A stretch of DNA of 63,479 bases from a virus (IMGVR_UViG_3300025121_000056:1-63479); one strand, 5' to 3'; positions 26,301 through 46,707 are shown, counted from the first letter of the stretch. Notes: generated by a model from the letters alone, not told the origin. Made by a program: numbers and translations.

Positions 26301-29252
26301 CTTTATTTAGACGTATTGAAAGCAAAACGATCTGACAAAGAATTATTATCAAGCGAAGTTAAGGAAGAAGAATCCAGACTTGAAAAAGGGACTGAAAGAT
26401 TAGAGAGTAAAATAGAAGACCCCGGATATTTAGAATACAAACGACAACGGACAAACATAAAAAATCAGATAAAAGAATTTAAGAGAGGTTGGGAAGCCGG
26501 CAAAAGAGATACCGAGCAAGAACTAACATTTTTGAAGAAACTCATTAGAGATTATGCACAGGAATATCTACCTAAGAATTTAATTAAATCTGAGATTACG
26601 CCTTTAATGACAAAATTAGCAGAAGCTAAGAAATTGGAAGATGTTGAGGAAGGATTTAACAGAATAGATAAAATAGTTCTTCACAACAATAAGAATTACT
26701 TACTTAAAAATATTTATGGTGCATTACAAACTTTCAGACCGGAGAAAGTAAAGGGTGTATTAAAGGGAAAACATTTAACGGCTCCGGAATATGACCAACT
26801 TTCAGACATCAGAAAAATAGTTTCTCTTAAACCAGACCAAGTAAATGAACTAACTACAAAATTATTTGAGAGGATAGAAACAGCCGGAGATGATTTTGAT
26901 GAAGCTGCTGAAGAATACCTTTACAGAATACAAACATTCTCAAACTTAAAAGAAAAATCAGTTGAAGAACTTTCTAAAGTGTTGGATGATTTAACTGAAA
27001 TAATTGCTACCGGGAAAACAAAACATCAACTAATACTTGAAGCTAAAAGAGAAAAACGAAAAGTATTGATAGATGAATTTGAAAAACTTATAACCGGCGG
27101 TAAAGGACTACTCAGCGAGGAAGAAGCAAGAGCCAAGGGATTAGATTTACAAAAGCACGAAAGTTTTATTAAAAAATTTGACCTTAATAACCAAAGTTTA
27201 GAGTGGTTATTTGATAATCTCAGTAAGTTTGATAAGGATTCTAAACCATTGGAGGGTGCATTAAATAAATATTTCATCCCTAAAGTACAGGAAAGTAGAA
27301 ATAATGAAAATGAAGGAACAACGAATTACTTTAAGGAAATCCACGATAAAGCCGAAGATGTCTTCGGAGTAAAGGGGCGCAAATTAGTGAGTCTCTTAAA
27401 CAAAAATACCGAGAGAGAAAAGACCGGAATATTTGTTAAAAAGGGCGAGAACAAGATCGAACTTGAATTAAGTCAAAACGAAGCATATAAAAAGTGGATG
27501 GAATGGCAAGATCCTTCACTAAAGCCAACATTAGAAAAGATGGGTTGGAATGAAGGAGTAATAAAACAAATTGAGAAGTGGCTCAAACCAGAAGTAAAGA
27601 AATGGGCTGAGTGGCAGATAAAAGAATTTTATCCAAAATATTATAAAACAGTAAATGATGTGTTTAGTAAGATGTTCTATGTGAATCTTCCCTTTAACGA
27701 ATATTATTCTCCGGTACAGAGAAGCGCGGAGGGTAAAGATAATTACGATGATCAACTATTGAGAAATAAAACTCAATATGCAAGTGTGATGAATGGGCAT
27801 TTAATGTCAAGAGTAAAAAACACCAGAGACTTAAAAATAATTGATGGTGATATTACATTAGCTAATCATTTGATAGTAATGGAACATTTTAAGAATTGGG
27901 CTGAGACAGTAAAAGAAATGCGTTCAGTTCTTCAAAGTGAAAAGATACAAAAAGCAATACTTCAATATCACGGCAAAACAGCACAGAGTATATTAAATGG
28001 ATTTATTAATGATTTAGCTAGAGGTGGAGAAGACAGGGCATTAGTTGTCAATTTCTTGGATAAGTTAAGAGGCGGATTTTCTAAAGCCGTATTAGGTGCA
28101 AATCCAGTAATTATGTTAAAACAATTTTCAAGTATGCCTGCCTTTGTTGGAGAAATACCAATTAGAGATTTTGCAAAAGGATTAACTTACTTTTTCTTAA
28201 ATCCAGGAAAAGCACTTGGGGAATTATCAGAAAGCAAAATGATGAAACACCGTTATCATCGAGGATGGGAAAGAGATGTTATTCAGGCATTAAAAAGATC
28301 AGTATCCAAGCAAATGGCGAACACAAAAAATTTCACAGATAATCTAATGATCTTCATTGAACTTGGAGATAAAGCAGCAAGTCATGTTGGCGGATATGGA
28401 GTTTACAGATACTATAAAGATAAATATTTAAGAGAAGGAAAATCACCAGAAGAAGCAAAAAGACAAGCCTTATTACAATTTGAATTGAGTGTAGGAAGGA
28501 CCCAACAAAAAGGGGATACTGAGGACTTATCGGCAATCCAGAGACTTGGTTCTTTCGGTAAATTATTCACAATGTTCCAAACACAACCAAATGCTTATTA
28601 CAGACAAATGAGTAATAATGTTAGGAATTTTTACCGCGGTAGAGGAAGAACAAACGCAGCCAAAAGGATATTTGTTTATCATTTTTTACTACCTTTTATT
28701 TTCCAATGGGTAGCGAGTGGACTCCCCGGACTACTAAGTAATTGGGATGATAAAGATAAAAAGCGGCAATTAAGAGCCTTGGCATTAGGTTCTTTTAATG
28801 GAATGTTGGCAATTGGAAATCTTATAGAAGATGGTATTGATTTTATAATAGGCGATATGAAGCAATATAATCCGCAAATGACACCAATTTTACAACCAAT
28901 AATTCAATTTGGTTATATGGCAAAAAATATTGCGAAGCTAATTGATGGCACAACCACCTTGAGCACAAATGAAGTGTTAAAGATCGTAGATGAAATAGTC
29001 TCAGTAGTAGGTAAAGCGAAGGGGATTCCTTATGATCCTATAAAGAGAACAATAAAAGGTGCAAAAAATATTTATGAGCAGGGTGGTGTAAAGTCTAGTG
29101 AAGATATATTAAAAACAATCGGATATAGCGATTATGCACTTGGCAACGATAAAGAAAAGGGTATAAAAAAATCAAATATTAACCAAAAACAATTATTCAA
29201 ACTCCCGAATTTTAGTAAAGAATTACAGGATAAATTAAAGATCAAGTTCTAA
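20340..29252 (+). CDS. Giant (2970 aa) ejection / polyvalent protein with ART-PolyVal-like domain
   Basis: ~25490-26110 encodes 'FKEFFGKSEVVD..NPLIVYHGT...GFHFG...YIRLENPL...GYDGLIY.N...YVVFDANQIKSA.GN.GEF'; helical C-terminus with 'LFTMFQTQPNAY'. Confidence 0.75.
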   Translation: MAKEKIIFDLGQIADRIREKYNTEWKTKEEEVKPSNGNDLSGIAQRLREKQNPSVLNQENIVKGNIPTNGNGFDPEGSGYDYKTAEKYGITPDSSDHYPSREPNTGLILKGKNHPTFNKTLEGEEKAGYVVYKGSDGRYYSKPKEQPKEDILSKVQSAYKPSIQERNLNVEGIGETFPEQTVTAKPSKESLADYQLSKVSQSDLLPELEIKKKELESTPKTSPNYNKKVNEFNSLLATFNDPKVRERELLDIANSKIPQPEHLAPQEYDESGNFKGYYKWVEPFIKAKNNALSMKDHPLVKAVNELSDYFTKKRFGQETKSSDLVRGITDAASAALSTSLGIYPAVAGFELASSFLREPLINASVKRLGLDRKKSEFLIDTISPFVFGAKVGLASLAGKDLEFLVDKTIPEDWSEEDKQRAKSLANQVGFWGTIYGSHRFQQNVDIYNRLGALPTKGQWGAINKYRNEPETLNRLIKGWTGGSYKVENPELKKEKQPIIQGLIEDIKPQDLNKTVRGTETFAEQTAEPIKSSEIPKEELADRDELFNIVRGSNDEATARKIAVGLTNKQAKFIITSGREGEEVNQEVIDGILKPKVSEAQDVQIGSTEKILQRQPEETGISRGERGGMERGEQGSEITGTQQEIPQGTNETKITKGDEEVSEFENIFDIRLSETTGEKIKFIYDMNKEIVDNPQENEPDEVESAQKIVKEIDDYANKTPEEKLTEPLPSEQKPTEKLPQQPQKSEVAQLPVSTKKVYPAVRDNQGKIYTGVTHPKAIEKMLGKSEDEITEKEYFNTSDNVDFGFVNEKGKFLTQDETRKYLGRNEIETMDAKDLADENLIKEPNPVPEVKAVEPQKITDRIDKLNGVEKTYWDGKNLKLTVYYDEKIPKDVIQVRVAKELSDNALTDAVPKITFLSTEKGTFAEEPTKSEAPTPVVSEKVVETKVEKQPYELSKEEFVDKTAQEYYEKDKGEKTKYIKRGLTEKSAQIEKSKADKDYFIEPDELQKGRFKVGHKVSGDAEGLTLDQYKDKYQKDFETLHKNNVDFAVSEGKKVSPKILKDYPDLAEKPTSLISEPEKETPVNYAGIKNFEKEAVTKLQENRKILDKLFEERDQRRNQELSPNDKRSALRNINSSVSELRAKGINARYENDNLYIDDKKIYPITTKKAENLNQVVIDNKEAETPFEKLTPEEQDRQTFLSDVISQKKFLPEELKRMLPVGFGQEKIDNAVKDIKEDGGKEQNRDAKIYRDFIKSVDDIFTRDGYITFTDGSKFTKEQYDNELEDYVYQRAKQQTDFEDDTFDFSLQDAIKNEEIDETTARELSLEQNPAEREELVKSIESEATSDNEVKLNEAVRKADEVVKPKKPSFLKPPKGSNAVIVKFKDGKQSKLPINDLSLIGNDYSKVDNISFGSVDFNKSGGLKWDSFKEIKNVNPNDQILKQDLDRTELQSLQDRKRHLELVLSETKDNEVIKKGQVELKDINNKLSKIRTKENQFDMFGDKQDQMSLFQKEHTRTRNVFEKMNDVEQQKFLRIVANGFLSENPDIKFGNVPKTSGRLASAIANITRQSILFDSRTSDMLTAIEEINHIVLSNPDMVSEWRAKAILRENGWDGRGDYREPNNNKTLEDAYENFADKNKEWYSKNKEATPKTLTEKFIVWLKNLWAKLAGYLHSKGFYTQAGFFENLYTGKLKQMGLKEQTERINEIRVENALAQKVEQTSSPEFKEFFGKSEVVDAKKNPLIVYHGTTGDFNTFEKGDVGFHFGSSDQANQRTMPIVKSGRKPLVRHEVMNGVKTIAQVTSEGANIIAAYIRLENPLRIRDNALTSPKDYAGAIIEEANRGNFDNKVANYIYANVERMLGSNYSLGSVKTKEAFDFIRDTLKGKGYDGLIYQNEYEDKEVKSDSYVVFDANQIKSAIGNSGEFSKSDNILKQKLEKINPELTQTLMQSLPDETNPMLQKGLEIFNLGKTKFTDWQKAMKEDFGKQNYQRLYLDVLKAKRSDKELLSSEVKEEESRLEKGTERLESKIEDPGYLEYKRQRTNIKNQIKEFKRGWEAGKRDTEQELTFLKKLIRDYAQEYLPKNLIKSEITPLMTKLAEAKKLEDVEEGFNRIDKIVLHNNKNYLLKNIYGALQTFRPEKVKGVLKGKHLTAPEYDQLSDIRKIVSLKPDQVNELTTKLFERIETAGDDFDEAAEEYLYRIQTFSNLKEKSVEELSKVLDDLTEIIATGKTKHQLILEAKREKRKVLIDEFEKLITGGKGLLSEEEARAKGLDLQKHESFIKKFDLNNQSLEWLFDNLSKFDKDSKPLEGALNKYFIPKVQESRNNENEGTTNYFKEIHDKAEDVFGVKGRKLVSLLNKNTEREKTGIFVKKGENKIELELSQNEAYKKWMEWQDPSLKPTLEKMGWNEGVIKQIEKWLKPEVKKWAEWQIKEFYPKYYKTVNDVFSKMFYVNLPFNEYYSPVQRSAEGKDNYDDQLLRNKTQYASVMNGHLMSRVKNTRDLKIIDGDITLANHLIVMEHFKNWAETVKEMRSVLQSEKIQKAILQYHGKTAQSILNGFINDLARGGEDRALVVNFLDKLRGGFSKAVLGANPVIMLKQFSSMPAFVGEIPIRDFAKGLTYFFLNPGKALGELSESKMMKHRYHRGWERDVIQALKRSVSKQMANTKNFTDNLMIFIELGDKAASHVGGYGVYRYYKDKYLREGKSPEEAKRQALLQFELSVGRTQQKGDTEDLSAIQRLGSFGKLFTMFQTQPNAYYRQMSNNVRNFYRGRGRTNAAKRIFVYHFLLPFIFQWVASGLPGLLSNWDDKDKKRQLRALALGSFNGMLAIGNLIEDGIDFIIGDMKQYNPQMTPILQPIIQFGYMAKNIAKLIDGTTTLSTNEVLKIVDEIVSVVGKAKGIPYDPIKRTIKGAKNIYEQGGVKSSEDILKTIGYSDYALGNDKEKGIKKSNINQKQLFKLPNFSKELQDKLKIKF

Positions 29253-37249: not shown

Positions 37250-38110
37250 ATGATAAAAATAAAGGCACAATTTACTGGAGTTATTTCTACTGGAGAATAT
37301 GAAAATGAAAGACCTTTTTTTGAAATAGAAGAAGAAGTTGAAAAATCAACCGATGAGGTTTTAGTTCAAAGGCATAATGAACTCTATAAAATGTGTAGAG
37401 ATATGTTTGATATGGTACAAAAACAATCTTATGTCAAACGTATTGCGAAACAAAGAGAAGGAATAAGATTCTATCCGCCAGAGAATTATCCTTCTGTAAC
37501 CTCTATTATTGGTTGGGATGAAGATTTCTTTATGTCGCCAGAAGAATTAGCACAACACGGAGCGAGAGGAACTATCTTACATAAACTTTCAGAGGTGTTT
37601 GATAATACCAAAGAGTGGAAAGATCCAAAAGATTTCCCCGAACTTTACCCTGATCTTGTAATCCTTAAAAAAGGCAGTTTACATCTTCCATTGGACGATC
37701 AAAACTATCCTGGTTTCATAGAAGAATATCCAATTAAATTTTTATCTCACGAAACAATAGTAAAGAATCACGAACATAAATACGCTGGACGACAAGATGC
37801 TGTTGGGATTCCTATTGTAATCGAAGAGAACAAAATTAAAGCGAATAGTTGGGCTAAAATGGGAGTTAAACCAGTCCTTACTTTGTTTGATAAAAAGTTC
37901 GGTGCTATGGACGAACACAAATATATGCAACAACTAACAGCTTATTGGAATTGTCCAGAGAACATTGACGTTAAACAAATCATTCTTATTCACTTGAATA
38001 AAAGAACTGAACAAGGATTTTCAAAACCGAAAGTCTGTACAGAAAAAGACAAATATTTTTCGTTATTCTTGAACAATAGAGAAAATTTCAAAAAACGATT
38101 TCAAATATAA
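37250..38110 (+). CDS. PD-(D/E)XK exonuclease-like recombination protein
   Basis: 'YPSVTSII', 'RGTILH', 'YAGRQD', 'LFDKK', 'QQLTAY'. Confidence 0.75.
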   Translation: MIKIKAQFTGVISTGEYENERPFFEIEEEVEKSTDEVLVQRHNELYKMCRDMFDMVQKQSYVKRIAKQREGIRFYPPENYPSVTSIIGWDEDFFMSPEELAQHGARGTILHKLSEVFDNTKEWKDPKDFPELYPDLVILKKGSLHLPLDDQNYPGFIEEYPIKFLSHETIVKNHEHKYAGRQDAVGIPIVIEENKIKANSWAKMGVKPVLTLFDKKFGAMDEHKYMQQLTAYWNCPENIDVKQIILIHLNKRTEQGFSKPKVCTEKDKYFSLFLNNRENFKKRFQI

Positions 38111-38122
38111 AAGGAGAACATC

Positions 38123-38515
38123 ATGGCTTTTCAAGAAGTAAAAGTAGAAAATGCAATCACACTAACAAAATTCCCGAATCACCCACTTACGGGTTATTAC
38201 TTGGGACACAGAACAATTACCTCAAGTTTCAAAGAACAAATAATCCACGATTTGAAAATTGTAGGTGGCGAAAAAGACGGGAAGAAAGTTTCTATTTATG
38301 GGTTTACAAGTCTTAACAGAAGTCTCGAATCGGTCGAAGCTGGGACACTTGTACGAGTTACTTATTTAGGTAAGTCAACAGAGAAAAATAAATACGGCAA
38401 TACTTCTCATATCTGTAGAGTTGAATTTGATTCTGAAAAAGTTGACGAAACTCTAAAAACACAACAGCACGAAGAAGGCGCGCAAGATGGCACTGACGAT
38501 GATCTTCCCTTCTAA
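38123..38515 (+). CDS. Probable single-stranded DNA-binding protein
   Basis: OB-like 'GTLVRVTYLG' and acidic tail DDDLPF. Confidence 0.7.
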   Translation: MAFQEVKVENAITLTKFPNHPLTGYYLGHRTITSSFKEQIIHDLKIVGGEKDGKKVSIYGFTSLNRSLESVEAGTLVRVTYLGKSTEKNKYGNTSHICRVEFDSEKVDETLKTQQHEEGAQDGTDDDLPF

Positions 38516-38518
38516 ATT

Positions 38519-38938
38519 ATGAAACTTTTTTGCTCAAATACTAAACTCGGATTAATTCCATTATATCCAGACGATCTTGATGAGAAGAAAAAACTCAAGA
38601 TGGGCGAAATCTATTCATGTGAAATTAAATTGGCAAGGAATTATGAGTTTCACAAGAAGTTTTTCGCATTATGTAAAATGGGCTTTGAGAACTCAAAAGA
38701 GAAATTCATTAAAGCTCCGAATCTTGACATATACAGAAAATATGTAATTATCCGTTCTGGATTTGTTGATTTAGTACAAACCCCAAGTGGGATTATTCCT
38801 TTTCCTCAATCTATTTCATTCGAGAATATGGACGAAACAAAATTTCAAGAAGTTTATGGGGGAGCTTTAGATTTTATTATGGAAGATATCGAGGCGAGTA
38901 AAGAAGATATAGAAAACGAGTTGGGAGATTTCTTTTAA
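38519..38938 (+). CDS. DUF1367 / NinB-like protein
   Basis: 'RNYEFHKKFFAL', 'PQSISFENMDETKFQEVY'. Confidence 0.75.
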   Translation: MKLFCSNTKLGLIPLYPDDLDEKKKLKMGEIYSCEIKLARNYEFHKKFFALCKMGFENSKEKFIKAPNLDIYRKYVIIRSGFVDLVQTPSGIIPFPQSISFENMDETKFQEVYGGALDFIMEDIEASKEDIENELGDFF

Positions 38939-38979
38939 TTGACAGTGTAATGGATACAACCTTAGAGAAACTAAGTAAA

Positions 38980-39110
38980 AAATAACATATATGCAACTTA
39001 CCCGATTATGGTAGTTGCTTAGAAACTAAAATTAGAGGATAAATTTTAATGGATGAAAAAATAAAATTGAACGACCAAGATAATAATTCGGGTAGAGTTG
39101 CGAGTTATTA
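38980..39110 (-). repeat. attC-like site (most distal)
   Basis: + strand ATAAC(38982) ATATAT GCAACT TACCCGA ... TCGGGTA [G] AGTTGC GA GTTAT(39104). Confidence 0.8.
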
Positions 39111-39264
39111 TACGAGCCCGCTCGCTCTAAGAAATGAGTACAAAGCCGAAAGTGGATACGATATTCAACACGTTATTGACAACGAAGATGAATCTTGTAT
39201 TGGTGTACTTATTCACTATATCAAAAATCTCGAAGGCAAACTGGTAAGAAAAGCGGGTAAGTAA
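39049..39264 (+). CDS. Cassette ORF, hypothetical; starts inside the attC loop
   Basis: GAGG RBS and ATG lie within 38980-39110. Confidence 0.55.
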   Translation: MDEKIKLNDQDNNSGRVASYYTSPLALRNEYKAESGYDIQHVIDNEDESCIGVLIHYIKNLEGKLVRKAGK

Positions 39265-39313
39265 CTCACAATTCCTTGCCGGAGCCTGTTATTATAGCTC
39301 GCTCCGCTCGCTA

Positions 39314-39442
39314 TAATAACAATTTGGCAGTTGTGCCGCAAAAAACGAGAGAGAAAATTTAGTATGAAGAAAATATTTAATAACATAAAAAACCCAAACT
39401 TCTTAACCGATATTTTTTGTCGGTACGAAGTGCAAGTTATAT
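39314..39442 (-). repeat. attC-like site
   Basis: ATAAC AATTTG GCAGTT GTGCCG CAAAAAA ... TTTTTTG [T] CGGTAC [G] AAGTGC AA GTTAT. Confidence 0.8.
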
Positions 39443-39458
39443 TTTTTTTACGGTAATT

Positions 39459-39938
39459 ATGGGACTATCATCTCATCAAAACACCGTAGGGAAAAACCAA
39501 GAATGGCTAACGCCCAGATATATATTAGAACCGCTTGGAAAGTTTGATTTAGATCCGTGCGCACCAAAACGCAGACCGTGGGGAATAGCTAATAAGCATT
39601 TTACTGTGGATGGATTAGAACGTAAATGGTTTGGAAGGGTTTGGTTAAATCCACCGTTTGATAGATACACAATCGGTTTATGGTTAAAAAAAATGGCTGA
39701 ACATAATAACGGTATTGCATTGATCGCAGCACGAACCGAAACAGAAAACTTTTACAACTATGTGTGGGATGTAGCAACAGGAGTTTTGTTCATTAAGAAC
39801 AGACCCCACTTTTGTTATGTAAATGGGACGATGGCAAAATTTAATTCTGGAGCGCCAATATGCTTAGTAGCTTATGGTGAGATAAACTTAAAGATCTTAA
39901 TTGAAAGTGGCTTAGGAGTGACAGTAAAAAAAATATAA
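39459..39938 (+). CDS. Cassette-borne phage DNA N6-adenine methyltransferase
   Basis: 'EWLTP', 'FDLDPCA', 'VWLNPPF', 'ARTET..F'; stop TAA lies in the next TAAC box. Confidence 0.85.
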   Translation: MGLSSHQNTVGKNQEWLTPRYILEPLGKFDLDPCAPKRRPWGIANKHFTVDGLERKWFGRVWLNPPFDRYTIGLWLKKMAEHNNGIALIAARTETENFYNYVWDVATGVLFIKNRPHFCYVNGTMAKFNSGAPICLVAYGEINLKILIESGLGVTVKKI

Positions 39939-40195
39939 CGTAGTGGCAACTTACACGTTTGCGGCTCAATAAAATAAACTGGAGAATAGACCAATGATAC
40001 AAAAACTATTAGAAGAATTTGCAAAACCATTTTACCGATTGAACATTGGCGGTATAGAAATAATACCCGATTCTAAGAAGGAATTCACTGGAGTAAGCCA
40101 TCGAGAATTATTCAGTTTCATTAATGACCTTTTGAATGTGCGTGCATGTAAAATAAAAAAGAAGCAAGCAAATCGTATACAGTTGCAAGTTATGC
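39933..40195 (-). repeat. attC-like site with long coding loop
   Basis: ATAAC GTAGTG GCAACT TACACG TTTGC ... GCAAA [T] CGTATA [C] AGTTGC AA GTTAT. Confidence 0.75.
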
Positions 40196-40374
40196 AGAAA
40201 ATTGCGGAGTTGATAGAATACCACAAACAAGAAGCATCAGAACCATATTTAACATTAAAGAGCATATCAAAATTAAAGAAGTTTGAGTTAAAGGTATTGA
40301 ATAACTACAAAAGGAAAATGAAGAAGAAACATCAAGACTGGATTAAAATATTAGAGAGCAATTTTACGGCATAA
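39994..40374 (+). CDS. Cassette ORF, hypothetical; about half is encoded within the attC
   Basis: GGAG RBS in the loop; reads through the arm as ANRIQLQV; TAA in TAAC. Confidence 0.6.
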   Translation: MIQKLLEEFAKPFYRLNIGGIEIIPDSKKEFTGVSHRELFSFINDLLNVRACKIKKKQANRIQLQVMQKIAELIEYHKQEASEPYLTLKSISKLKKFELKVLNNYKRKMKKKHQDWIKILESNFTA

Positions 40375-40469
40375 CGCCGAAGCTAAATGGCGCGAGTGAT
40401 AAAATAGAAATAACTAACTAAACCAAAAACTGCCACGTAACGAGCGTCCATTTGAGCGACTTGTTATGT
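40369..40469 (-). repeat. attC site with canonical geometry
   Basis: Minus strand: R'' ACATAAC, spacer AAGTC, L'' GCT[C]AAAT, GG[A]CGC ... GCGCC, L' ATTTAGC, spacer TTCGGC, R' GTTATGC. Confidence 0.9.
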
Positions 40470-40490
40470 GGCAAAACAGAGCGAGGATTT

Positions 40491-40877
40491 ATGAAAACGG
40501 ATTTGAAGGTAAGCGCGGATATAAACGCAGGGATGGATCAACTCGGAAAATTTTTGAACGATTTATCGGTAAAACTTGGAATAGCCGGAAAAGAATTGTT
40601 GCCATACTACGCAAAGAGAGTATTCTTGCGCGGACTACAAAGAATAATTTTCGGGGCATTGGTAATGATATTGCCATATCTATTATTTTTTGTAAATCCA
40701 TTTCCAGAAACGTATAAAGATTATTGGATGTTGGCAAGAATACTGTTTTGCATAACGACAACGTGGAAAGGGCTTGATTGGATTACTGATTGGATTGAAG
40801 AAATTGGCGCACCGGAATCGGTTGCGATACAATGGTTACTGGATGAGTTCAGAAATTTTATTAAAGCGGTAAGATAA
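40491..40877 (+). CDS. Cassette ORF, membrane protein
   Basis: GAGG RBS, two hydrophobic helices. Confidence 0.65.
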   Translation: MKTDLKVSADINAGMDQLGKFLNDLSVKLGIAGKELLPYYAKRVFLRGLQRIIFGALVMILPYLLFFVNPFPETYKDYWMLARILFCITTTWKGLDWITDWIEEIGAPESVAIQWLLDEFRNFIKAVR

Positions 40878-40899
40878 AAAGCGCGGTGGCGTTTTGTCC

Positions 40900-41029
40900 A
40901 CATAACGGAGTTGCAATTGTGCCGATTGCGGACACTGTAAATAAAATTTTATGAACGAAATAACTAACATATTAAACAACAAAAAATGCCGATCAAGAAA
41001 GCAATTCGGACACGAATTGCGAGTTATAT
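40900..41029 (-). repeat. attC-like site
   Basis: ATAAC GGAGTT GCAATT GTG CCG ATTGC ... GCAAT [T] CGG [A] CAC [G] AATTGC GA GTTAT. Confidence 0.8.
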
Positions 41030-41054
41030 TTTTTGGCGGCGGGAGATTGTAAAA

Positions 41055-41273
41055 ATGACAAACAAAGAAATTAAAGAAAACATTTTAGAACAAGCAGAAG
41101 AGCTTGAAAAACTTTTAACCGACAGAATTAGTGAGCTATATAATTTAAGCGGAGCTGCACAAGGACAGTTCTTTCAAGGTGCAAGACACACTTTTTGTTA
41201 TTACAGAGATTATACTTGGAAAATACGGGACTTGGCGAGACAGATTGCAGAAGTAAAGCCAGCCGCCAAATAA
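41055..41273 (+). CDS. Cassette ORF, hypothetical
   Basis: GGGAG RBS before ATG 41055; ends AAK-stop in the cassette end repeat. Confidence 0.6.
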   Translation: MTNKEIKENILEQAEELEKLLTDRISELYNLSGAAQGQFFQGARHTFCYYRDYTWKIRDLARQIAEVKPAAK

Positions 41274-41406
41274 ATATAACGGTTCTTTGCCTAAACCGAT
41301 TGCGGACTTAGAAAAACAATGATAAATAATTTATTAACTAAAAATAGCCGACCAAACTCAAATCAAGAATTGCGAAAGCAATTCGGATTTGAGGCAATAG
41401 TTATAT
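41274..41406 (-). repeat. attC-like site
   Basis: ATAAC GGTTCT TTGCCT AAA CCG ATTGC ... GCAAT [T] CGG [A] TTT [G] AGGCAA TA GTTAT. Confidence 0.8.
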
Positions 41407-41438
41407 TTTTTGGCGGCGGACATTAAAGGAGAAACAGA

Positions 41439-41582
41439 ATGGAAACATTAGCAGTCCTTAACGGAATATTTTTTATAGTAAATATTACAATAAACGCTAT
41501 GCAAGGAAATTGGGCGGCAACAGCAGGATGGTTTTGTGCATTGTGTTGGGTATTTAATTGGTATATAAAAGCCGCCAAATAA
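41439..41582 (+). CDS. Cassette ORF, 47-aa membrane peptide (not in the ORF track)
   Basis: AAGGAG RBS; METLAVLNGIFFIVNITINAMQGNWAATAGWFCALCWVFNWYIKAAK. Confidence 0.65.
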   Translation: METLAVLNGIFFIVNITINAMQGNWAATAGWFCALCWVFNWYIKAAK

Positions 41583-41776
41583 ATATAACGGAGTGGCGGC
41601 TAAACTGCTGCGGAAATAAAAGAAAGGAAATAATAAGATGGACGTTGAGAAAATTAAAAAGTGGATTGCGAACATAGAGCATTTTGAACCCGATTTAAGT
41701 TTAGGGACGTGTAGGACATTAGGTGACATTAAAAAAGAACTTGACAAGAGCAGTCAGTTTGAGCCGCAAGTTAAGG
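41583..41776 (-). repeat. attC-like site with coding loop
   Basis: ATAAC GGAGTG GCGGCT AAACTG CTGC ... GCAG [T] CAGTTT [G] AGCCGC AA GTTAA. Confidence 0.8.
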
Positions 41777-41946
41777 TGCAAATTGCGGAAATTACAGAGG
41801 ATTATATAGAAATTGCTTTTAATAAAATTGTTACAGTAACAGATAGTAAGGATTTTTTTGAAAGAGATGGCTTCGCAGAATGCAACAAAGTTCAATTACA
41901 CGCAATTATTATGCAAATATGGTTACATAGCAATTTGTCAACATAA
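41638..41946 (+). CDS. Cassette ORF, hypothetical; starts inside the attC
   Basis: AAGGA RBS in the loop; reads the arm as SSQFEPQV; TAA in TAAC. Confidence 0.6.
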   Translation: MDVEKIKKWIANIEHFEPDLSLGTCRTLGDIKKELDKSSQFEPQVKVQIAEITEDYIEIAFNKIVTVTDSKDFFERDGFAECNKVQLHAIIMQIWLHSNLST

Positions 41947-42068
41947 CAGATCAGCGATAAGACGCAAAAGAGTAAGAAGGAAAATTTAATTAATGAACAA
42001 ATTTAATAACATAATAACTACAAAAATTGGAACGAATACTTTTGTCGTTCTTGATTGCGTAGTTAGTT
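41941..42068 (-). repeat. attC-like site
   Basis: ATAAC AGATCA GCGAT AAGA CG CAAAAG ... CTTTTG [T] CG [T] TCTT [G] ATTGC GTA GTTAG. Confidence 0.8.
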
Positions 42069-42098
42069 TGCTTTGTGGCGGACACAGGAGATAATAAA

Positions 42099-42497
42099 TT
42101 GGAAGAGAAAATAATATTAAAAGGGATAGTAGCAACGGGTTATATGATGGACAACTTTAGCGGAATAGACTTAATACAAGAGGACGGCTATAAAGTTGAC
42201 TTGATAACCAGATTGAAAGAGTTTGTATATAATTATGGTAAAAAAATAACTGTTAGATATTGGGTTGCAGAGAAAAGAGAAGAAGATGAGAATGTAAAAA
42301 AGAATACGTTAAAGAAAATTATGGGAGTATTAGAGGCGGAATACGAAACAAGTTATTATGAGTATAGCGAATATACAAGTGTAACTGATTACGATACAGT
42401 ATTTAACATTGACAAACACAACCTATATGCGGAATTGATGGGAGTGCAAGGGAAATATTTGATATTAGAAGTGGAGAAAGCCACAAAGTCAAACTAA
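42099..42497 (+). CDS. Cassette ORF, hypothetical phage protein
   Basis: AGGAG RBS before TTG 42099; 'YSEYT...HNLYAEL...GKYLILEV'; TAA in TAAC. Confidence 0.65.
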   Translation: MEEKIILKGIVATGYMMDNFSGIDLIQEDGYKVDLITRLKEFVYNYGKKITVRYWVAEKREEDENVKKNTLKKIMGVLEAEYETSYYEYSEYTSVTDYDTVFNIDKHNLYAELMGVQGKYLILEVEKATKSN

Positions 42498-42617
42498 CGG
42501 CGTGGTTTTTCACTTGCCGCATCGGAAGATAAATGAATGAAAATATTAAACAAAATACTAAACATTAAATTAACAATCGCCTCGCTATTCGCGGTCAAGT
42601 GCAAAAACTTGTTATGC
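42492..42617 (-). repeat. attC-like site (attI-proximal)
   Basis: CTAAC GGCGTG GTTTTT CACTTG CCGC ... GCGG [T] CAAGTG [C] AAAAAC TT GTTAT. Confidence 0.8.
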
Positions 42618-42644
42618 TTTTGCGGGCGGAGAAGGAGAAGATAA

Positions 42645-42866
42645 ATGGAAGTCATAACAGGAAAAATTTATAAGTGTTCTTTTTGTGGACATCGAACCCT
42701 AACAAAAAAAGGTATGGAATTACACGAGGGAACATATTGCAAAAAAAACAAGAATTCAATAGCATTAATGGATATAGAAGATTATGGAGAATCACAAGAA
42801 ATCAGACGTGGTGATTATTCCTCAGACGAACTAGCGAGAAATAATGCTTGGCAAATGGGTATTTAG
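42645..42866 (+). CDS. Cassette ORF, small zinc-finger protein
   Basis: 'YKCSFCG...MELHE..YCKKN'; AAGGAG RBS. Confidence 0.7.
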   Translation: MEVITGKIYKCSFCGHRTLTKKGMELHEGTYCKKNKNSIALMDIEDYGESQEIRRGDYSSDELARNNAWQMGI

Positions 42867-42884
42867 AACGCAAGCCCGCAATAA

Positions 42885-42950
42885 GCATAACTATCTCTTA
42901 TATAGAATTTATTCTTGATAATATTTATGAACAAACATAAACGGGAATTA
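42885..42950 (-). other. attI-like site (crossover G/TT at 42891 on the minus strand)
   Basis: The last TAAC box has no attC hairpin partner and lies 60 bp before the intI-like start. Confidence 0.6.
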
Positions 42951-42951
42951 T

Positions 42952-43098
42952 ATGTTAGAAGATGATTTCAGATCGGTTTGCAGATTAAACCACTTTGCTA
43001 CAAAGACAGAAAATACTTACTGGAGTTTTTGTTTGCAATTTATTCTATTCCATAATAAGAAACATCCGGCGGAACTTGGTAAAAAAATTGGTTATTAA
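42952..43098 (+). pseudogene. intI: Integron integrase N-terminal fragment (48 aa)
   Basis: MLEDDFRSVCRLNHFATKTENTYWSFCLQFILFHNKKHPAELGKKIGY* matches the IntI N-terminal pattern (LDQ.R..IR..HYS.RTE..Y..W...FI.FH..RHP..LG). Confidence 0.85.
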
Positions 43099-43242
43099 TC
43101 ACAATATTCTTATTTTTAGTTAGCTTATGAAACGTATCTTAACAATATTTTTATTATTTGCCCCAAAAGATAAGGAATCTTGCCCTAAAGGTACGATTCA
43201 TAAGCACTTATTTTGCGGGGCATTTTTTATTGGAATGTTATA

Positions 43243-44145
43243 ATGAAAATATGTCGAATTTGTTTAATCGAGAAAAAAGAAGACGAGTTTTATCCGAGGA
43301 TGGGAGTTTGTAAAATTTGCCACAATAAAAGATGCAGAGATTGGGCAATCAAAAATCCCAAAAGAATATTGAGCATTAATCTAAGAGCAAAAAATAAGGC
43401 TAATAAATTACGGTATGATTGGTTATCAAAACATAAACGAAGACATCGGGGTATATACGTAACAAATGGGAAATTCCAAGCAACTTATCAACATAAAAGG
43501 AAACGATATTATTGTGGTCTTTTTGATACTATGGAACAAGCAATAAGGGCATATAGAAAAAAAGAGAAAGAAATTACCGGCAAAAATAGAATTCCTCTAA
43601 AACCAACTTTTAATTACAAAAATAAAACCGTGAAAATTCCGTTGTGCAATTATGGAAGAGCAAATTCTAAACATTATGGTAAATTCACAACGATTATTGA
43701 TTTAGGCGATTATAAAAAAATTAAAGATTATTCTCTATCAATTAATGGTGGTTATGTTGTCTTATCTATAAACGGATCGTTGGTCAGATTGCATAACTTT
43801 TTATTTGATAGCGAAAATACAGATCATAGGAATGGGAATAAACTAGACAACAGAAAATCTAATTTTAGAAAAGCAACTCATACCCAGAACGCAAGAAACA
43901 GTAAAAAACCTGTCCATAATGGACTTTATCATAAGAACACAAGTCCATATAAAGGTGTAACAAAAAGAAACGATTATATGTATAAGTATAGAACAAGAAT
44001 AAGGGTTGATGGAAGATTAATAAGTTTGGGCACTTATGATAACGAAATAGTCGCAGCAAAAATTTACGATGCAGCGGCAAGAAAATATTTCGGTGAATTT
44101 GCTTGTTTGAATTTTCCTCAGAGACAAGAAAGGGGGGCAATTTAA
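43243..44145 (+). CDS. HNH endonuclease with AP2 DNA-binding domain(s)
   Basis: 'DHRNGNKLDNRKSNFRKAT..QN', 'SPYKGV...LGTYDNEIVAAKIYDAAARKYFGEFACLNF'; N-terminal CxxC pairs. Confidence 0.9.
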   Translation: MKICRICLIEKKEDEFYPRMGVCKICHNKRCRDWAIKNPKRILSINLRAKNKANKLRYDWLSKHKRRHRGIYVTNGKFQATYQHKRKRYYCGLFDTMEQAIRAYRKKEKEITGKNRIPLKPTFNYKNKTVKIPLCNYGRANSKHYGKFTTIIDLGDYKKIKDYSLSINGGYVVLSINGSLVRLHNFLFDSENTDHRNGNKLDNRKSNFRKATHTQNARNSKKPVHNGLYHKNTSPYKGVTKRNDYMYKYRTRIRVDGRLISLGTYDNEIVAAKIYDAAARKYFGEFACLNFPQRQERGAI

Positions 44146-44937: not shown

Positions 44938-46707
44938 ATGAAACTTAATATTTCAAAAGATTTTAGTTTACCGATTGATGCAGTTACACAAACCTTTTCA
45001 ATATTAGCTAAACGAAGGGTGGGGAAAACATATACCGCTTCAGTTATGGCCGAGGAAATGGTAAAAGCGAAACTTCCATTTGTTGTTTTAGATCCTACTG
45101 GTGCATGGTGGGGATTACGTTCCGGTAAAGATGGTCGGTCCGAAGGTGGTTTGCCTGTTTATGTCATTGGTGGCGAACATGGTATTCCTTTGGAACCGAC
45201 TGCCGGGAAAGTAATAGCCGAACAAGTAGCAACTTATCCTTCTTTTTATGTAATAGATATATCTCAATTTGAAAGTAATGCAGCACAAGATAGATTTGCA
45301 ACAGATTTTGCTGAAAGACTTTATCGAATAAAAGAAAAAAATCGTGAAGTAATGCACCTTTTTATTGACGAAGCTGATGCTTTTGCACCACAAAGACCTA
45401 TGCCCGGGCAACAAAGAATGTTGGGTGCGTTTGAAGTGTTGGTAAGAAGGGGTGGAATACGTGGTATCGGTATTACATTAATTACTCAACGTCCAGCAGT
45501 TATAAATAAAAACGTACTTACTCAAACAGAGTGTTTAATCGTTCTACAAACTACTTCTCCGCAAGATCAAGATGCTATTGAAGAATGGGTAAAACGGAAT
45601 GGTAGTGATGAGGAAAGAAAAACTTTAATGTCTTCTCTCGCTTCATTAAAAAGAAGTGAGGCGTGGATTTATTCACCTGCTTGGTTAGAAGTATTCAAAC
45701 GAATCAACATTAGAGAACGTGATACATTTAATTCTTCCGCAACTCCGAAAGCCGGGGAAAAACAAATTAATAATCCGTCCCTTAAACAAGTTGATATAGA
45801 AAAATTAAGTCAGCAGATCAAAGCAACTATTGAGAAAACAAAAGAGAACGATCCAGAGATACTGAAAAGGAAAATCCGGGAACTTGAAAGGAATCAGAGT
45901 ATTAAAAATGTTGTTAGTCCTGATATGCTCTTAGTCAATAATCTGAAGGAAACAATAAAAGGACAGGATAAAGAGATCATCCAATTACGGAAACAGTTGT
46001 TACAAACGAATGAAACTATTAAACTCACATTCCAAAAGACTTTGAAAACAGTAAAATCTTATGTGGATAAAATAGATTTTTCAGAAATAGATATTCCTAT
46101 AATTGTAGTAAACACACAAAATGAATTTTTCAAAATGGCTACAACTCCAAACACTGATAATTCTGTTATAGGGAAGATAATAATTAAGGAAAAATTTAAT
46201 CAATCTCCTTGTAAAACAACAATCCGTGATGGAGAAATAAAACTTAAAGACGGGGCTAAAAGAATGTTGGCTGCTGCTGTAAAGTGGAATCCTCTTGGAA
46301 TAACTGGTTCTCAAATGAAAACACAAGCCGGGATAAAGCACGTTAATACTTTTAGCACTTATAAAACTCAATTAATTAGCGTGGGGTTGTTGTTTCTAAA
46401 TAGTGGTAGCGGTTTATTCTACCCTACTGAAGAAGGGATAAAATATTCTGGCGATACTCCGAGTGCAGAAACAACAGAAGAAGTATTGGCGTTATGGTTG
46501 CCTCACTTCAAAGATGGTGCAAGAAGAATGTTGAGGTTTTTAGTAACTCTAGACGGTAAGGCAATCACACACGAATCTTTGATGCAAGAAGCGCGCATCG
46601 AACATCCGAATACCTATAGTACATATAAGACACAATTAAAGTCTGCTCATCTTGTGGTAGAAAATGACGGTATGATTTCAGCAAATAAGGAAACATTATT
46701 CTTATGA
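44938..46707 (+). CDS. HerA/DUF87-like P-loop ATPase with duplicated C-terminal wHTH-like module
   Basis: Walker A AKRRVGKT, 'VLDPTG', Walker B LFIDEAD, 'ITQRP'; twice 'KDGA.RML...T(F/Y)STYKTQL'. Confidence 0.85.
   Translation: MKLNISKDFSLPIDAVTQTFSILAKRRVGKTYTASVMAEEMVKAKLPFVVLDPTGAWWGLRSGKDGRSEGGLPVYVIGGEHGIPLEPTAGKVIAEQVATYPSFYVIDISQFESNAAQDRFATDFAERLYRIKEKNREVMHLFIDEADAFAPQRPMPGQQRMLGAFEVLVRRGGIRGIGITLITQRPAVINKNVLTQTECLIVLQTTSPQDQDAIEEWVKRNGSDEERKTLMSSLASLKRSEAWIYSPAWLEVFKRINIRERDTFNSSATPKAGEKQINNPSLKQVDIEKLSQQIKATIEKTKENDPEILKRKIRELERNQSIKNVVSPDMLLVNNLKETIKGQDKEIIQLRKQLLQTNETIKLTFQKTLKTVKSYVDKIDFSEIDIPIIVVNTQNEFFKMATTPNTDNSVIGKIIIKEKFNQSPCKTTIRDGEIKLKDGAKRMLAAAVKWNPLGITGSQMKTQAGIKHVNTFSTYKTQLISVGLLFLNSGSGLFYPTEEGIKYSGDTPSAETTEEVLALWLPHFKDGARRMLRFLVTLDGKAITHESLMQEARIEHPNTYSTYKTQLKSAHLVVENDGMISANKETLFL

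What the first reader, a model, noticed from the sequence alone, without database searches (positions are those of the whole stretch)
39104..42891. Cassette ends form extended inverted repeats with a conserved bulge at position 10
Seen: complementarity between the GTT box before each cargo and the AAC box after it runs 14-18 bp, well beyond the usual 7-bp R box. In 8 of 9 cassettes the reverse complement of the right end has one extra base exactly at position 10: GTTATGCTT[A]TTGCGGGC, GTTAGTTTG[A]CTTTGTGGC, GTTATGTTG[A]CAAATTGC, GTTATATTT[A]TTTGGCGGC (twice), GTTATGTGG[A]CAAAAC, GTTATGCCG[T]AAAATTGC, GTTATTATA[G]CGAGC. The ninth (methylase cassette) is a perfect 16-bp pair. Position is conserved while sequence varies, which points to structural selection. 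Inference: an outer stem with its own extrahelical base could be an extra integrase-binding determinant or a trace of how cassettes are made.
Basis: seen in the sequence. Interest (0 to 1): 0.85.

Follow-up and report, generated by a model that had tools for sequence, protein, structure and literature searches.

The report
Bulged outer stem on phage integron cassettes
A phage carries nine integron-type gene cassettes whose two ends pair with each other far beyond the textbook 7 bases, nearly always with one spare base at position 10, a site design that looks selected but whose role is untested.

Summary
Observation confirmed and extended. In the window, 8 of 9 cassettes have 9 complementary bases, one extra base on the AAC-side end, then 5-9 more pairs. 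The ninth is a perfect 16-mer.

The spacers between cargos are genuine attC-type hairpins. They match the integron bottom-strand design (G and T extrahelical bases opposite the AAC arm) and the sites found beside integron integrase genes in the likely host phylum.

- Wider sample: across 32 cassettes from this and related viral and metagenome contigs, cognate ends pair far better than non-cognate ends. Every single-base offset lies on the same side and fits position 10.
- Chromosomal comparison: integrase-linked arrays also pair beyond 7 bp (mostly 10-13, up to 18), but continuously. The bulged form appears in only one of them.

Best reading: the outer stem extends the R-box helix and forms only in the excised, circular cassette. 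Integrase recognition of the bulge is not shown.

The phage cassettes are also back to front: the hairpin lies ahead of the gene and translation starts in its loop. This scan has noted that layout before on other DNA.

Verdict: a new variant of a known kind.

The parts
38986..39104 (+). attC-type hairpin IE0 (C of AAC to G of GTT); its loop holds the start of the 71-aa ORF 39049-39264
   Evidence: scanner; fold; consensus fold; ORF
39320..39436 (+). attC-type hairpin IE1; a 30-aa leader ORF starts in the loop
39939..40189 (+). attC-type hairpin IE2 with a long loop (249 nt) that holds the start of the 126-aa ORF 39994-40374
40375..40463 (+). attC-type hairpin IE3 (short, 87 nt between the boxes; lowest score)
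40906..41023 (+). attC-type hairpin IE4 (three extrahelical bases); 33-aa leader ORF
41280..41400 (+). attC-type hairpin IE5 (three extrahelical bases); 35-aa leader ORF; near-identical copy in L001
41589..41770 (+). attC-type hairpin IE6 with a long loop that holds the start of the 102-aa ORF 41638-41946
41947..42062 (+). attC-type hairpin IE7; 33-aa leader ORF
42498..42611 (+). attC-type hairpin IE8; 35-aa leader ORF
39104..39117 (+). cassette A left end (9 + 5 paired positions)
39306..39320 (+). cassette A right end; extra base C at 39311. It also forms a local 11-bp hairpin with 39288-39298
39436..39451 (+). cassette B (Dam-like methylase) left end, perfect 16-mer, no bulge
39924..39939 (+). 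cassette B right end
40189..40205 (+). cassette C left end
40358..40375 (+). cassette C right end; extra base A at 40366
40463..40477 (+). cassette D left end
40891..40906 (+). cassette D right end; extra base T at 40897
41023..41040 (+). cassette E left end (identical to F)
41262..41280 (+). cassette E right end; extra base T at 41271 (first base of the stop codon)
41400..41417 (+). cassette F left end
41571..41589 (+). cassette F right end; extra base T at 41580
41770..41786 (+). cassette G left end (2 mismatches in the first helix)
41930..41947 (+). cassette G right end; extra base T at 41938
42062..42079 (+). cassette H left end
42480..42498 (+). cassette H right end; extra base T at 42489
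42611..42627 (+). cassette I left end
42874..42891 (+). cassette I right end; extra base T at 42882. This is the last AAC of the array and no hairpin follows it

Best explanation
The region is an integrase-less array (CALIN) of nine integron-type cassettes in a phage genome.

- Layout: each cassette, read on the + strand, is an attC hairpin, then a GTT box, the cargo, and an AAC box. The + strand has the design of the recombining bottom strand. The crossover is therefore inferred at AA|C on the 5' side of each hairpin.
- The pairing: the two cassette ends are the outward continuation of the attC R-box helix. In the array they lie hundreds of bases apart. They come together only when the cassette is excised and circularised.
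- The resulting foot: 9 bp, one extrahelical base (mostly T) on the AAC arm (the arm that is cut), then a second helix of 5-9 bp with a G+C-rich end.
- Inferred function: the first helix is the seat of the integrase subunit that cuts. The second helix clamps the folded site of the free cassette and so favours its capture over excision from the array. The bulge interrupts the helix about one turn from the crossover, either as a hinge or as a recognised base.

Shown here: the anatomy, the cognate-only pairing, covariation, the conserved side and position of the bulge, and the predicted stabilisation. Inferred: which enzyme acts (presumably a host IntI), the crossover point, and any role of the bulge.
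For: 1. The spacers are attC-type hairpins.
- All 9 have AAC, about 6 unpaired nt, 6 bp, an extra base on the GTT arm (G in 7 of 9, C in 2 of 9), 6-7 bp, an extra T (9 of 9), 4-7 bp and a loop.
- This matches the bottom-strand description in Nivina 2016, PMC5027507, read as passages: extrahelical bases opposite the AAC arm, a G first, a T last, 6 bp between them, sometimes a third base.
- An independent consensus fold of 33 such sites found the same arms. 12 of its 14 predicted pairs carry compensatory changes.

2. Control on real integrons.
- 90 of 301 genomes in the phylum of a MAG titled Ignavibacterium sp. have an integron integrase above the curated cut-off.
- In 40 regions flanking those genes, the same scanner gave 153 hits on the intI strand and 3 on the other. 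9 regions had no hit.
- The sites there show the same offsets and bulges.

3. Ends.
- Cognate ends pair far better than non-cognate ends: 29 of 32 lie above the non-cognate 95th percentile.
- A one-base offset fits 17 of 32 cassettes, always on the AAC-side end. The best position is 10 in 16 and 11 in 1.

4. The pairing only makes sense in the circle. In-silico circular cassettes fold with the outer stem in 8 of 9. The energy change against the array context runs from +0.9 to -14.9 kcal/mol.

5. The hairpin travels with the cargo downstream of it.
- The window holds 9 hairpins and 9 cargos, begins with a hairpin and ends with an AAC.
- L001's array and the single cassette of the complete phage G001 end the same way.
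- Two hairpin types are always followed by the same left end (2 of 2 and 3 of 3), while their upstream right ends differ.
Against: - No integrase: none is encoded in the window, in the complete relative G001, or in the two partial relatives G002 and G003. No enzyme is therefore tied to these sites.
- Half lack the design: 15 of 32 cassettes have no second helix. Nine to ten of these pair for 9-13 bp only, two are long perfect helices and three look non-cognate. The bulged helix is therefore not required.
- Rare in chromosomes: integrase-linked chromosomal cassettes have unbroken helices. Only 2 of 59 distinct end pairs show a bulge, both in one array.
- Linkage is not absolute: the commonest hairpin type (IE0) is followed by at least five different left ends. 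Contigs of two runs show IE6 followed by a different left end, with the break at 41774.
- Cassette D: its circular form does not fold into the outer stem in the minimum-energy structure.
- Crystal substrate: by my own reckoning from the base numbering quoted and from recall of the crystal paper, the solved integrase-attC complex used DNA that ends at the 7-bp R box. An outer helix would then not be needed for binding. I did not read that paper.
Confidence: 0.55

Rival explanations
1. The pairing is mainly a historical trace. A conserved chassis (hairpin plus both end sequences) exists first as a cargo-less cassette, and genes are loaded or swapped between the two ends. The ends then match because they descend from one short hairpin, not because the outer stem does anything today.
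For: - Identical 18-19-nt ends surround unrelated cargos: E, F, a third cargo in L001 and, in degenerate form, a fourth in L002.
- Three contigs share one hairpin type plus the same left end ahead of two different methylases and a 62-nt cargo-less cassette.
- The window has an 11-bp GTT...AAC mini-hairpin with no cargo at 39288-39320.
- One contig diverges from the window exactly at the outer edge of E's right end, at 41261.
- Contigs of two runs skip 40209-40352, between the two ends of cassette C. This is weak: 24 letters on the shorter side, and letters may lie between.
Against: A relic without function should decay. Instead the second helices are nearly perfect in at least 12 different sequences that differ from each other by paired changes. 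The one-base offset has not been lost or shifted. The L072 empty cassette keeps the N- and C-terminal codons of the L067 methylase, so it looks like a deletion product and not a precursor.
Confidence: 0.2
2. The stem acts in RNA. Cargo and hairpin are on the transcribed strand, so each cistron's leader region could pair with its own 3' end. That pairing could control translation, or processing and stability of the message.
For: - Open frames lie on the hairpin's bottom-strand-like strand in 24 of 31 cassettes.
- The left-end helix stops just before purine-rich ribosome-binding-like motifs.
- Small leader ORFs start in the hairpin loops, run through the GTT box and the left end, and stop at the cargo's start region.
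Against: - The first 9-13 bp of the same cognate pairing occur in chromosomal integron cassettes whose genes are on the other strand.
- The mismatches seen in C and G are A-G, A-A and G-A, not G-U wobbles.
- No Rfam family matches.
- Promoter-like and terminator-like sites are not enriched.
- No RNA data were available: 0 of the 15 listed runs are on record as RNA.
Confidence: 0.15
3. The sites are used by a recombinase other than a classical integron integrase, for example a host Xer-like enzyme, and the outer bulged helix is part of that enzyme's own site design.
For: - No integrase was found in four viral records.
- The four MAGs that hold the motif have only Xer-like matches below the integron-integrase cut-off.
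- Earlier unchecked notes of this scan describe integron-like phage arrays beside Xer-like recombinases.
Against: The inner hairpin matches sites lying beside bona fide integron integrases in offsets, bulge identity and spacing. 30% of the sampled genomes of that phylum carry such an integrase.
Confidence: 0.08
4. Chance, or terminal inverted repeats of small transposons.
For: Short inverted repeats are common in A+T-rich DNA. The repeat finder lists 166 inverted pairs in the region.
Against: The cognate versus non-cognate contrast and the constant position and side of the offset argue against chance. End sequences differ between cassettes, which a transposase site would not allow. I saw no target duplication, and Pfam and PHROGs named no transposase among the ten ORFs searched between 39049 and 44145.
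Confidence: 0.02

Closest known systems
Integron attC sites and gene cassettes (folded bottom-strand hairpin with R box, unpaired central spacer, L box, extrahelical bases and variable terminal structure)
   Same: AAC and GTT boxes. An imperfect hairpin with G and T extrahelical bases on the arm opposite AAC, 6-7 bp apart, and sometimes a third base. Sequence varies while structure is kept. One gene per unit, in tandem arrays.
   Different: - The cognate foot helix is 9 bp, a bulge and 5-9 more bp, instead of the 7-bp R box given in PMC5027507 (passages).
- Genes lie on the bottom-strand-like strand, so the hairpin precedes its gene.
- Translation starts inside the hairpin loop.
- The spacer is asymmetric, about 6 nt against 2 nt.
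CALINs (clusters of attC sites lacking an integron integrase) in phage genomes: Qi, Rajabal, Ghaly, Tetu and Gillings 2023, PMC9892861 (abstract, section 3.4 and passages read)
   Same: A phage-borne attC array without an integrase. DNA methyltransferases are a frequent cargo. That paper showed five phage attC sites recombining with attI1 under IntI1.
   Different: Section 3.4 and the passages I read do not mention pairing of cassette ends beyond the R box, an outer bulge, or gene starts inside attC loops. Its supplements were not seen. The MW202573 record it lists holds no site of this family by my scanner.
Sedentary chromosomal integrons in the phylum of the Ignavibacterium MAG (integrase found in 90 of 301 sampled genomes)
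   Same: The same hairpin architecture and size (about 110 nt). Cassette ends pair in cognate fashion well beyond 7 bp.
   Different: - The helices are continuous: a perfect run of 10-13 bp in 34 of 59 distinct end pairs, and up to 18 bp.
- Genes lie on the strand opposite the bottom strand in 57 of 68 intervals.
- The 9 bp plus bulge form appears in only one array, L118.
Synthetic attC sites embedded in protein-coding sequence: Nivina et al. 2020, PMC7439510 (passages read)
   Same: An attC hairpin can be read through as codons.
   Different: Those sites were engineered. Here natural hairpins encode leader peptides or the first roughly 20 residues of methyltransferases.

Membership tests
Integron attC site | Conserved 5'-AAC-3' and 5'-GTT-3' triplets closing an imperfect hairpin (R box) | tested here: met
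   All 9 window sites and 49 credible family sites of 50 scanner hits. The boxes are invariant in the 33-site alignment.
Integron attC site | Extrahelical bases on the arm opposite AAC: first usually G, last a conserved T, about 6 bp apart | tested here: met
   G in 7 of 9 and C in 2 of 9. T in 9 of 9. 6-7 paired positions between them, with a third base in 3 sites. Definition from PMC5027507 passages.
Integron attC site | Unpaired central spacer of 5-6 nt on each arm between the R and L boxes | tested here: inconclusive
   An internal loop is present but asymmetric, about 6 nt on the AAC arm and 2 nt on the GTT arm. The same asymmetry is seen in sites beside intI genes.
Integron attC site | Length 57-141 bp | tested here: met
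   7 of 9 have 87-119 nt between the boxes. Two have long loops of 180 and 249 nt.
Integron attC site | Same architecture as sites in arrays next to an integron integrase gene | tested here: met
   153 scanner hits on the intI strand against 3 on the other, in 40 regions. Same offsets and bulges.
Integron attC site | Recombined by an integron integrase at AA|C of the bottom strand | not testable with these tools
   Needs a recombination assay. Contig break points at 40376 and 38993 lie at or near AAC boxes, but they are only contig ends.
Integron attC site | Detected by the field's own models (IntegronFinder, HattCI) | not tested
   These programs are not among the tools. Rfam holds no such family and gave no match.
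CALIN | Two or more attC sites close together with no integron integrase nearby | tested here: met
   9 sites in 3.6 kb. No PF00589 match in the 63.5-kb record, which is estimated 76% complete.
Canonical integron gene cassette | Gene on the top strand, followed by its attC | tested here: not met
   The longest open frame is on the bottom-strand-like strand in 24 of 31 phage-type cassettes, on the opposite strand in 5, with 2 ties. In chromosomal arrays it is on that strand in 10 of 68 intervals and on the opposite strand in 57.

The most novel reading that the evidence does not exclude
The outer helix with its extrahelical T is a third recognition element of the cassette site. It exists only in the excised circle and biases the host integrase toward capturing cassettes over losing them.

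On this reading it marks a phage-specific pool of reversed cassettes, mostly orphan DNA methyltransferases, whose translation starts inside the hairpin. The pool would be built on a reusable hairpin-plus-ends chassis into which new genes are loaded. That would give a concrete, testable model for how cassettes are made.

One geometric hint: the outer bulge lies 9 nt 5' of the C of AAC on one arm, and the inner G lies 9 nt 5' of the G of GTT on the other. This is a two-fold arrangement about the crossover base pair. I counted it from the sequence, and it may be coincidence.
Probability: 0.2. Interest if true: 0.8.

Novelty: new variant of a known kind. Interest (0 to 1): 0.6.

Why it matters
The textbook integron site ends at a 7-bp R box, and how cassettes are assembled is a long-standing open question.

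Three points follow from this work:
- **A property visible only in the free cassette.** In a whole phylum, and in phages that probably infect it, the two ends of a cassette are matched over 10-18 bp. That property can be seen by selection only in the excised cassette.
- **A defined test structure.** The phage version adds a bulge at a fixed place, which gives a specific structure for recombination and binding assays.
- **A constraint on origin models.** The same hairpin-plus-ends frame surrounds unrelated genes, and cargo-less frames exist. This argues that sequence on both sides of the gene belongs to the mobile frame, which constrains models of cassette origin.

The reversed, methylase-rich cassettes also suggest that phages use a host's integron machinery to shuffle anti-restriction genes.

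Tried and rejected
**Searches for relatives that gave nothing useful**
- blastn of 38000-44000 against the phage records: no match.
- NinB-like protein against viral contigs: no relative.
- The 589-aa protein at 44938-46707, which PHROGs matched to terminase, is annotated as a helicase in its only phage-record hit, MW202482.
- Its viral relative L003, MW202482 and MW202573 hold no site of this family.

**DNA patterns**
- The 15-mer gave 37 loci. Only L002 holds a family site by eye. The scanner found weak hits in five others and none in the rest.
- The two-part pattern gave 18 loci. 16 of them are coding or chance matches, and only L001 and L056 are real.

**Integrases**
- None in the window, G001, G002 or G003. 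L060 and L064 could not be searched.
- The four MAGs with the motif have only sub-threshold, Xer-like matches to the integron-integrase model.

**Other negative scans**
- Rfam: no match.
- Promoter-like sites: 13 found against 16.8 expected. Terminator-like sites: 5 against 2.8.

**Ideas rejected**
- *A coding reason for the bulge.* The G of the GTT box sits at codon position 1, 2 or 3 in different leader frames (translations read against the sequence), so no single frame rule explains a fixed offset. The extra T does start a stop or serine codon in many right ends, which I could not interpret.
- *Neighbouring cassettes pair.* Non-cognate ends share only about 5 bases.
- *Transposon ends.* See the rivals.

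**Sequencing runs**
A bin without depth is no finding.

**This scan's notebook**
Look-ups by place, by sequence and by the words for this finding returned nothing.

Full report
**The observation.** The window is a 63.5-kb viral record with all long ORFs on the + strand and about 35% G+C. Between 38986 and 42891, nine small cargos are separated by spacers that begin ...(A/C)TAAC and end GTTA....

I compared each cargo's first 25 bases with the reverse complement of its last 25. Eight cassettes have 9 matching positions, one extra base in the right end, then 5-9 further matches. The methylase cassette matches over 16 positions with no offset. E and F have identical ends. A model search over offsets at positions 4-16 on either side puts the best offset at position 10 of the right end in all eight.

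**What the spacers are.** Aligning the arm after AAC with the reverse complement of the arm before GTT gives one architecture in all nine. After about 6 unpaired bases (2 on the other arm) come 6 bp, an extra base on the GTT arm (G in 7, C in 2), 6-7 bp (with a third extra base in 3 sites), an extra T (9 of 9), 4-7 bp and a loop.

This is the design of the recombining bottom strand of an integron attC site. Nivina et al. 2016 (PMC5027507, passages) describe extrahelical bases on the arm opposite the AAC triplet, first a G, last a conserved T, 6 bp apart, sometimes a third. RNAalifold on 33 distinct sites of similar length recovered the same arms without my input. 12 of its 14 pairs carry compensatory changes. 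Rfam has no match.

**Control on real integrons.** One motif from the GTT-side arm of the hairpin, with its GTT box, occurs in four MAG contigs, two of them titled Ignavibacterium or Ignavibacteriota.
- In the phylum of that MAG, 90 of 301 sampled genomes have an integron integrase above the curated cut-off. Integrons in Ignavibacteriae and Chlorobi are on record (PMC9024848, passage).
- I fetched 40 regions on the array side of such genes. My scanner reports a strand only when the extra bases lie on the GTT arm. It gave 153 hits on the integrase's strand and 3 on the other, with 9 regions empty.
- The sites there have the same 6/2 offsets, bulges and size of about 110 nt.

This both validates the scanner and ties the phage sites to integrase-linked ones.

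**Orientation and boundaries.** In the chromosomal arrays the longer open frame is on the strand opposite the bottom strand in 57 of 68 intervals. In the phage-type arrays it is on the same strand in 24 of 31. The phage cassettes are therefore reversed: the hairpin lies ahead of its gene.

With the crossover at AA|C of the bottom strand, a cassette is a hairpin plus the cargo downstream of it. Several points fit this boundary:
- The window has 9 hairpins and 9 cargos, starts with a hairpin and ends with a bare AAC.
- L001's array ends the same way, and the complete phage G001 has one hairpin, one cargo and a closing AAC.
- Two hairpin types are always followed by the same left end (2 of 2 and 3 of 3), while their upstream neighbours differ.

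Against a strict rule, the IE0 type is followed by at least five different left ends. No integrase is encoded in the window, G001, G002 or G003.

**A larger set of cassettes.** Pattern scans brought in L001, L002 and L056 from viral contigs, and 18 metagenome contigs of which 14 hold family sites. In all there are 50 scanner hits, 49 of them credible.
- For 32 cassettes, cognate ends score a median of 12 against 5 for 992 non-cognate pairs. 29 of 32 exceed the non-cognate 95th percentile.
- A one-base offset fits 17 of 32, always in the right end. The best position is 10 in 16 cases and 11 in one.
- Outside the window the placement is unambiguous in four (L065 twice, L072, L073), plus L002b seen by eye. 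It is ambiguous within a homopolymer but compatible with 10 in four more. In L066 it is 10 or 11 with a mismatch.
- Of the other 15, two are long perfect helices (16 and 15 bp), nine to ten pair for 9-13 bp and then stop, and three look non-cognate, probably because a site was missed between them.
- The base at position 10 of the reversed right end is A (T on the + strand) in 19 of 33 distinct end pairs.

**Comparison with chromosomal cassettes.** Among 69 intervals of 1100 nt or less between neighbouring sites in integrase-linked arrays there are 59 distinct end pairs. The perfect cognate run is 10-13 bp in 34, 14-18 bp in 6 and 8-9 bp in 5. In the remaining 14 it is 6 bp or less, and those probably span more than one cassette.

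Pairing beyond the 7-bp R box is thus the rule there, and it is continuous. Only two distinct end pairs have an offset. Both are in the array L118, both at position 10 and on the same side. In my searches I found no paper that describes either the long cognate helix or the bulged form. The searches cover open-access text only.

**Folding.** Circularly permuted cassettes built in a script fold, with DNA parameters, into the outer stem in 8 of 9 (not D). They gain between -1.2 and -14.9 kcal/mol over the array context in 8 of 9. F changes by +0.9, because its neighbour E already supplies the same end.

**Variants in public runs.** Eleven runs hold half or more of the region's sampled words. Contigs of four runs that hold 75-92% of those words were laid on the window. 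They diverge from it at module edges:
- just after the AAC at 40376;
- a few bases after the AAC at 38993;
- just after the GTTAA at 41774;
- at the outer edge of E's right end, at 41261;
- in three runs, exactly at F's bulge, at 41581.

Three joints skip a cargo, a cassette or a loop, but each has only 20-26 letters on one side. These are contigs, so they show that such forms exist and nothing about rates.

**How it most likely works.** The ends can meet only in the excised circle. There they prolong the R-box helix on which the cutting integrase subunit sits.

I infer that the first 9-11 bp are that subunit's seat. The helix must end or be interrupted about one turn out. Phage cassettes, whose first helix is often A+T-only, add a clamp with a G+C-rich end beyond a one-base hinge. 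This would make the free cassette fold well while the same site in the array, with only about 5 shared pairs, folds poorly.

Whether the extra T is read by the enzyme is open. The rivals (a relic of a loading chassis, an RNA stem, another recombinase) are weighed in their own sections.

**Limits.** The site scanner is my own. The field's programs were not available. Cassettes share ancestry, so counts are not independent events. Host assignment rests on two MAG titles. Supplements of the cited papers were not seen.

Noticed in passing
window 39049, 39365, 39994, 40951, 41320, 41638, 41993, 42537 (ATG codons in hairpin loops); L059-L076: In 8 of the 9 window hairpins an ATG inside the loop opens a frame that runs through the GTT-side arm and the GTT box. 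It is either a 30-35-aa leader that stops at the cargo's start region (five hairpins), or the true N-terminus of the cargo protein (three hairpins). In related contigs, one hairpin-encoded 20-residue N-terminus is fused to several different enzymes. All 10 of the 10 large fusion ORFs tested are DNA methyltransferases: N6_N4_Mtase in 8 and MT-A70 in 2. Earlier notes of this scan report the same layout in other phages.
   Followed up: partly
window 38986-42891; L001, L056, L059-L076: The phage cassettes are reversed relative to canonical integron cassettes. The open frame is on the bottom-strand-like strand in 24 of 31 cassettes, against 10 of 68 intervals in integrase-linked arrays.
   Followed up: yes
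L116-L155 (regions beside integron integrase genes): In chromosomal integrons of this phylum, the two ends of a cassette are perfectly complementary over 10-13 bp in 34 of 59 distinct end pairs and over up to 18 bp in one array (L145). Position 12 pairs less often than chance in the first batch. I found no description of this in the papers searched.
   Followed up: partly
window 41023-41040 / 41262-41280 and 41400-41417 / 41571-41589; L001; L002: Cassettes E and F have identical 18-19-nt ends but unrelated cargos. The same ends surround a third cargo in L001 and, in degenerate form, a fourth in L002. All four proteins end in the residues encoded by the right end.
   Followed up: partly
window 39288-39320; L072 997-1058: Cargo-less units exist. 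One is an 11-bp GTT...AAC hairpin with an 11-nt loop at the end of cassette A. The other is a 62-nt cassette in L072 that keeps only the first and last codons of the methylase found in L067.
   Followed up: partly
window 43213-44145: An HNH endonuclease gene lies 320 nt after the last AAC of the array (phrog_99, E 2.6e-40). An exonuclease gene and a NinB/Orf recombination mediator gene lie directly before the array.
   Followed up: no
window 20340-29252: A single 2970-aa open reading frame. I did not examine it.
   Followed up: no
L002 5650-5800: Three head-to-tail copies of a unit of about 60 nt lie upstream of the partial array in this related viral contig.
   Followed up: no
L118 (G135, beside intI): This is a chromosomal array of at least 21 sites with many near-identical cassettes of about 300 nt and a doubled GTTGTT box. 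It is the only integrase-linked array with the 9 bp plus bulge ends.
   Followed up: partly
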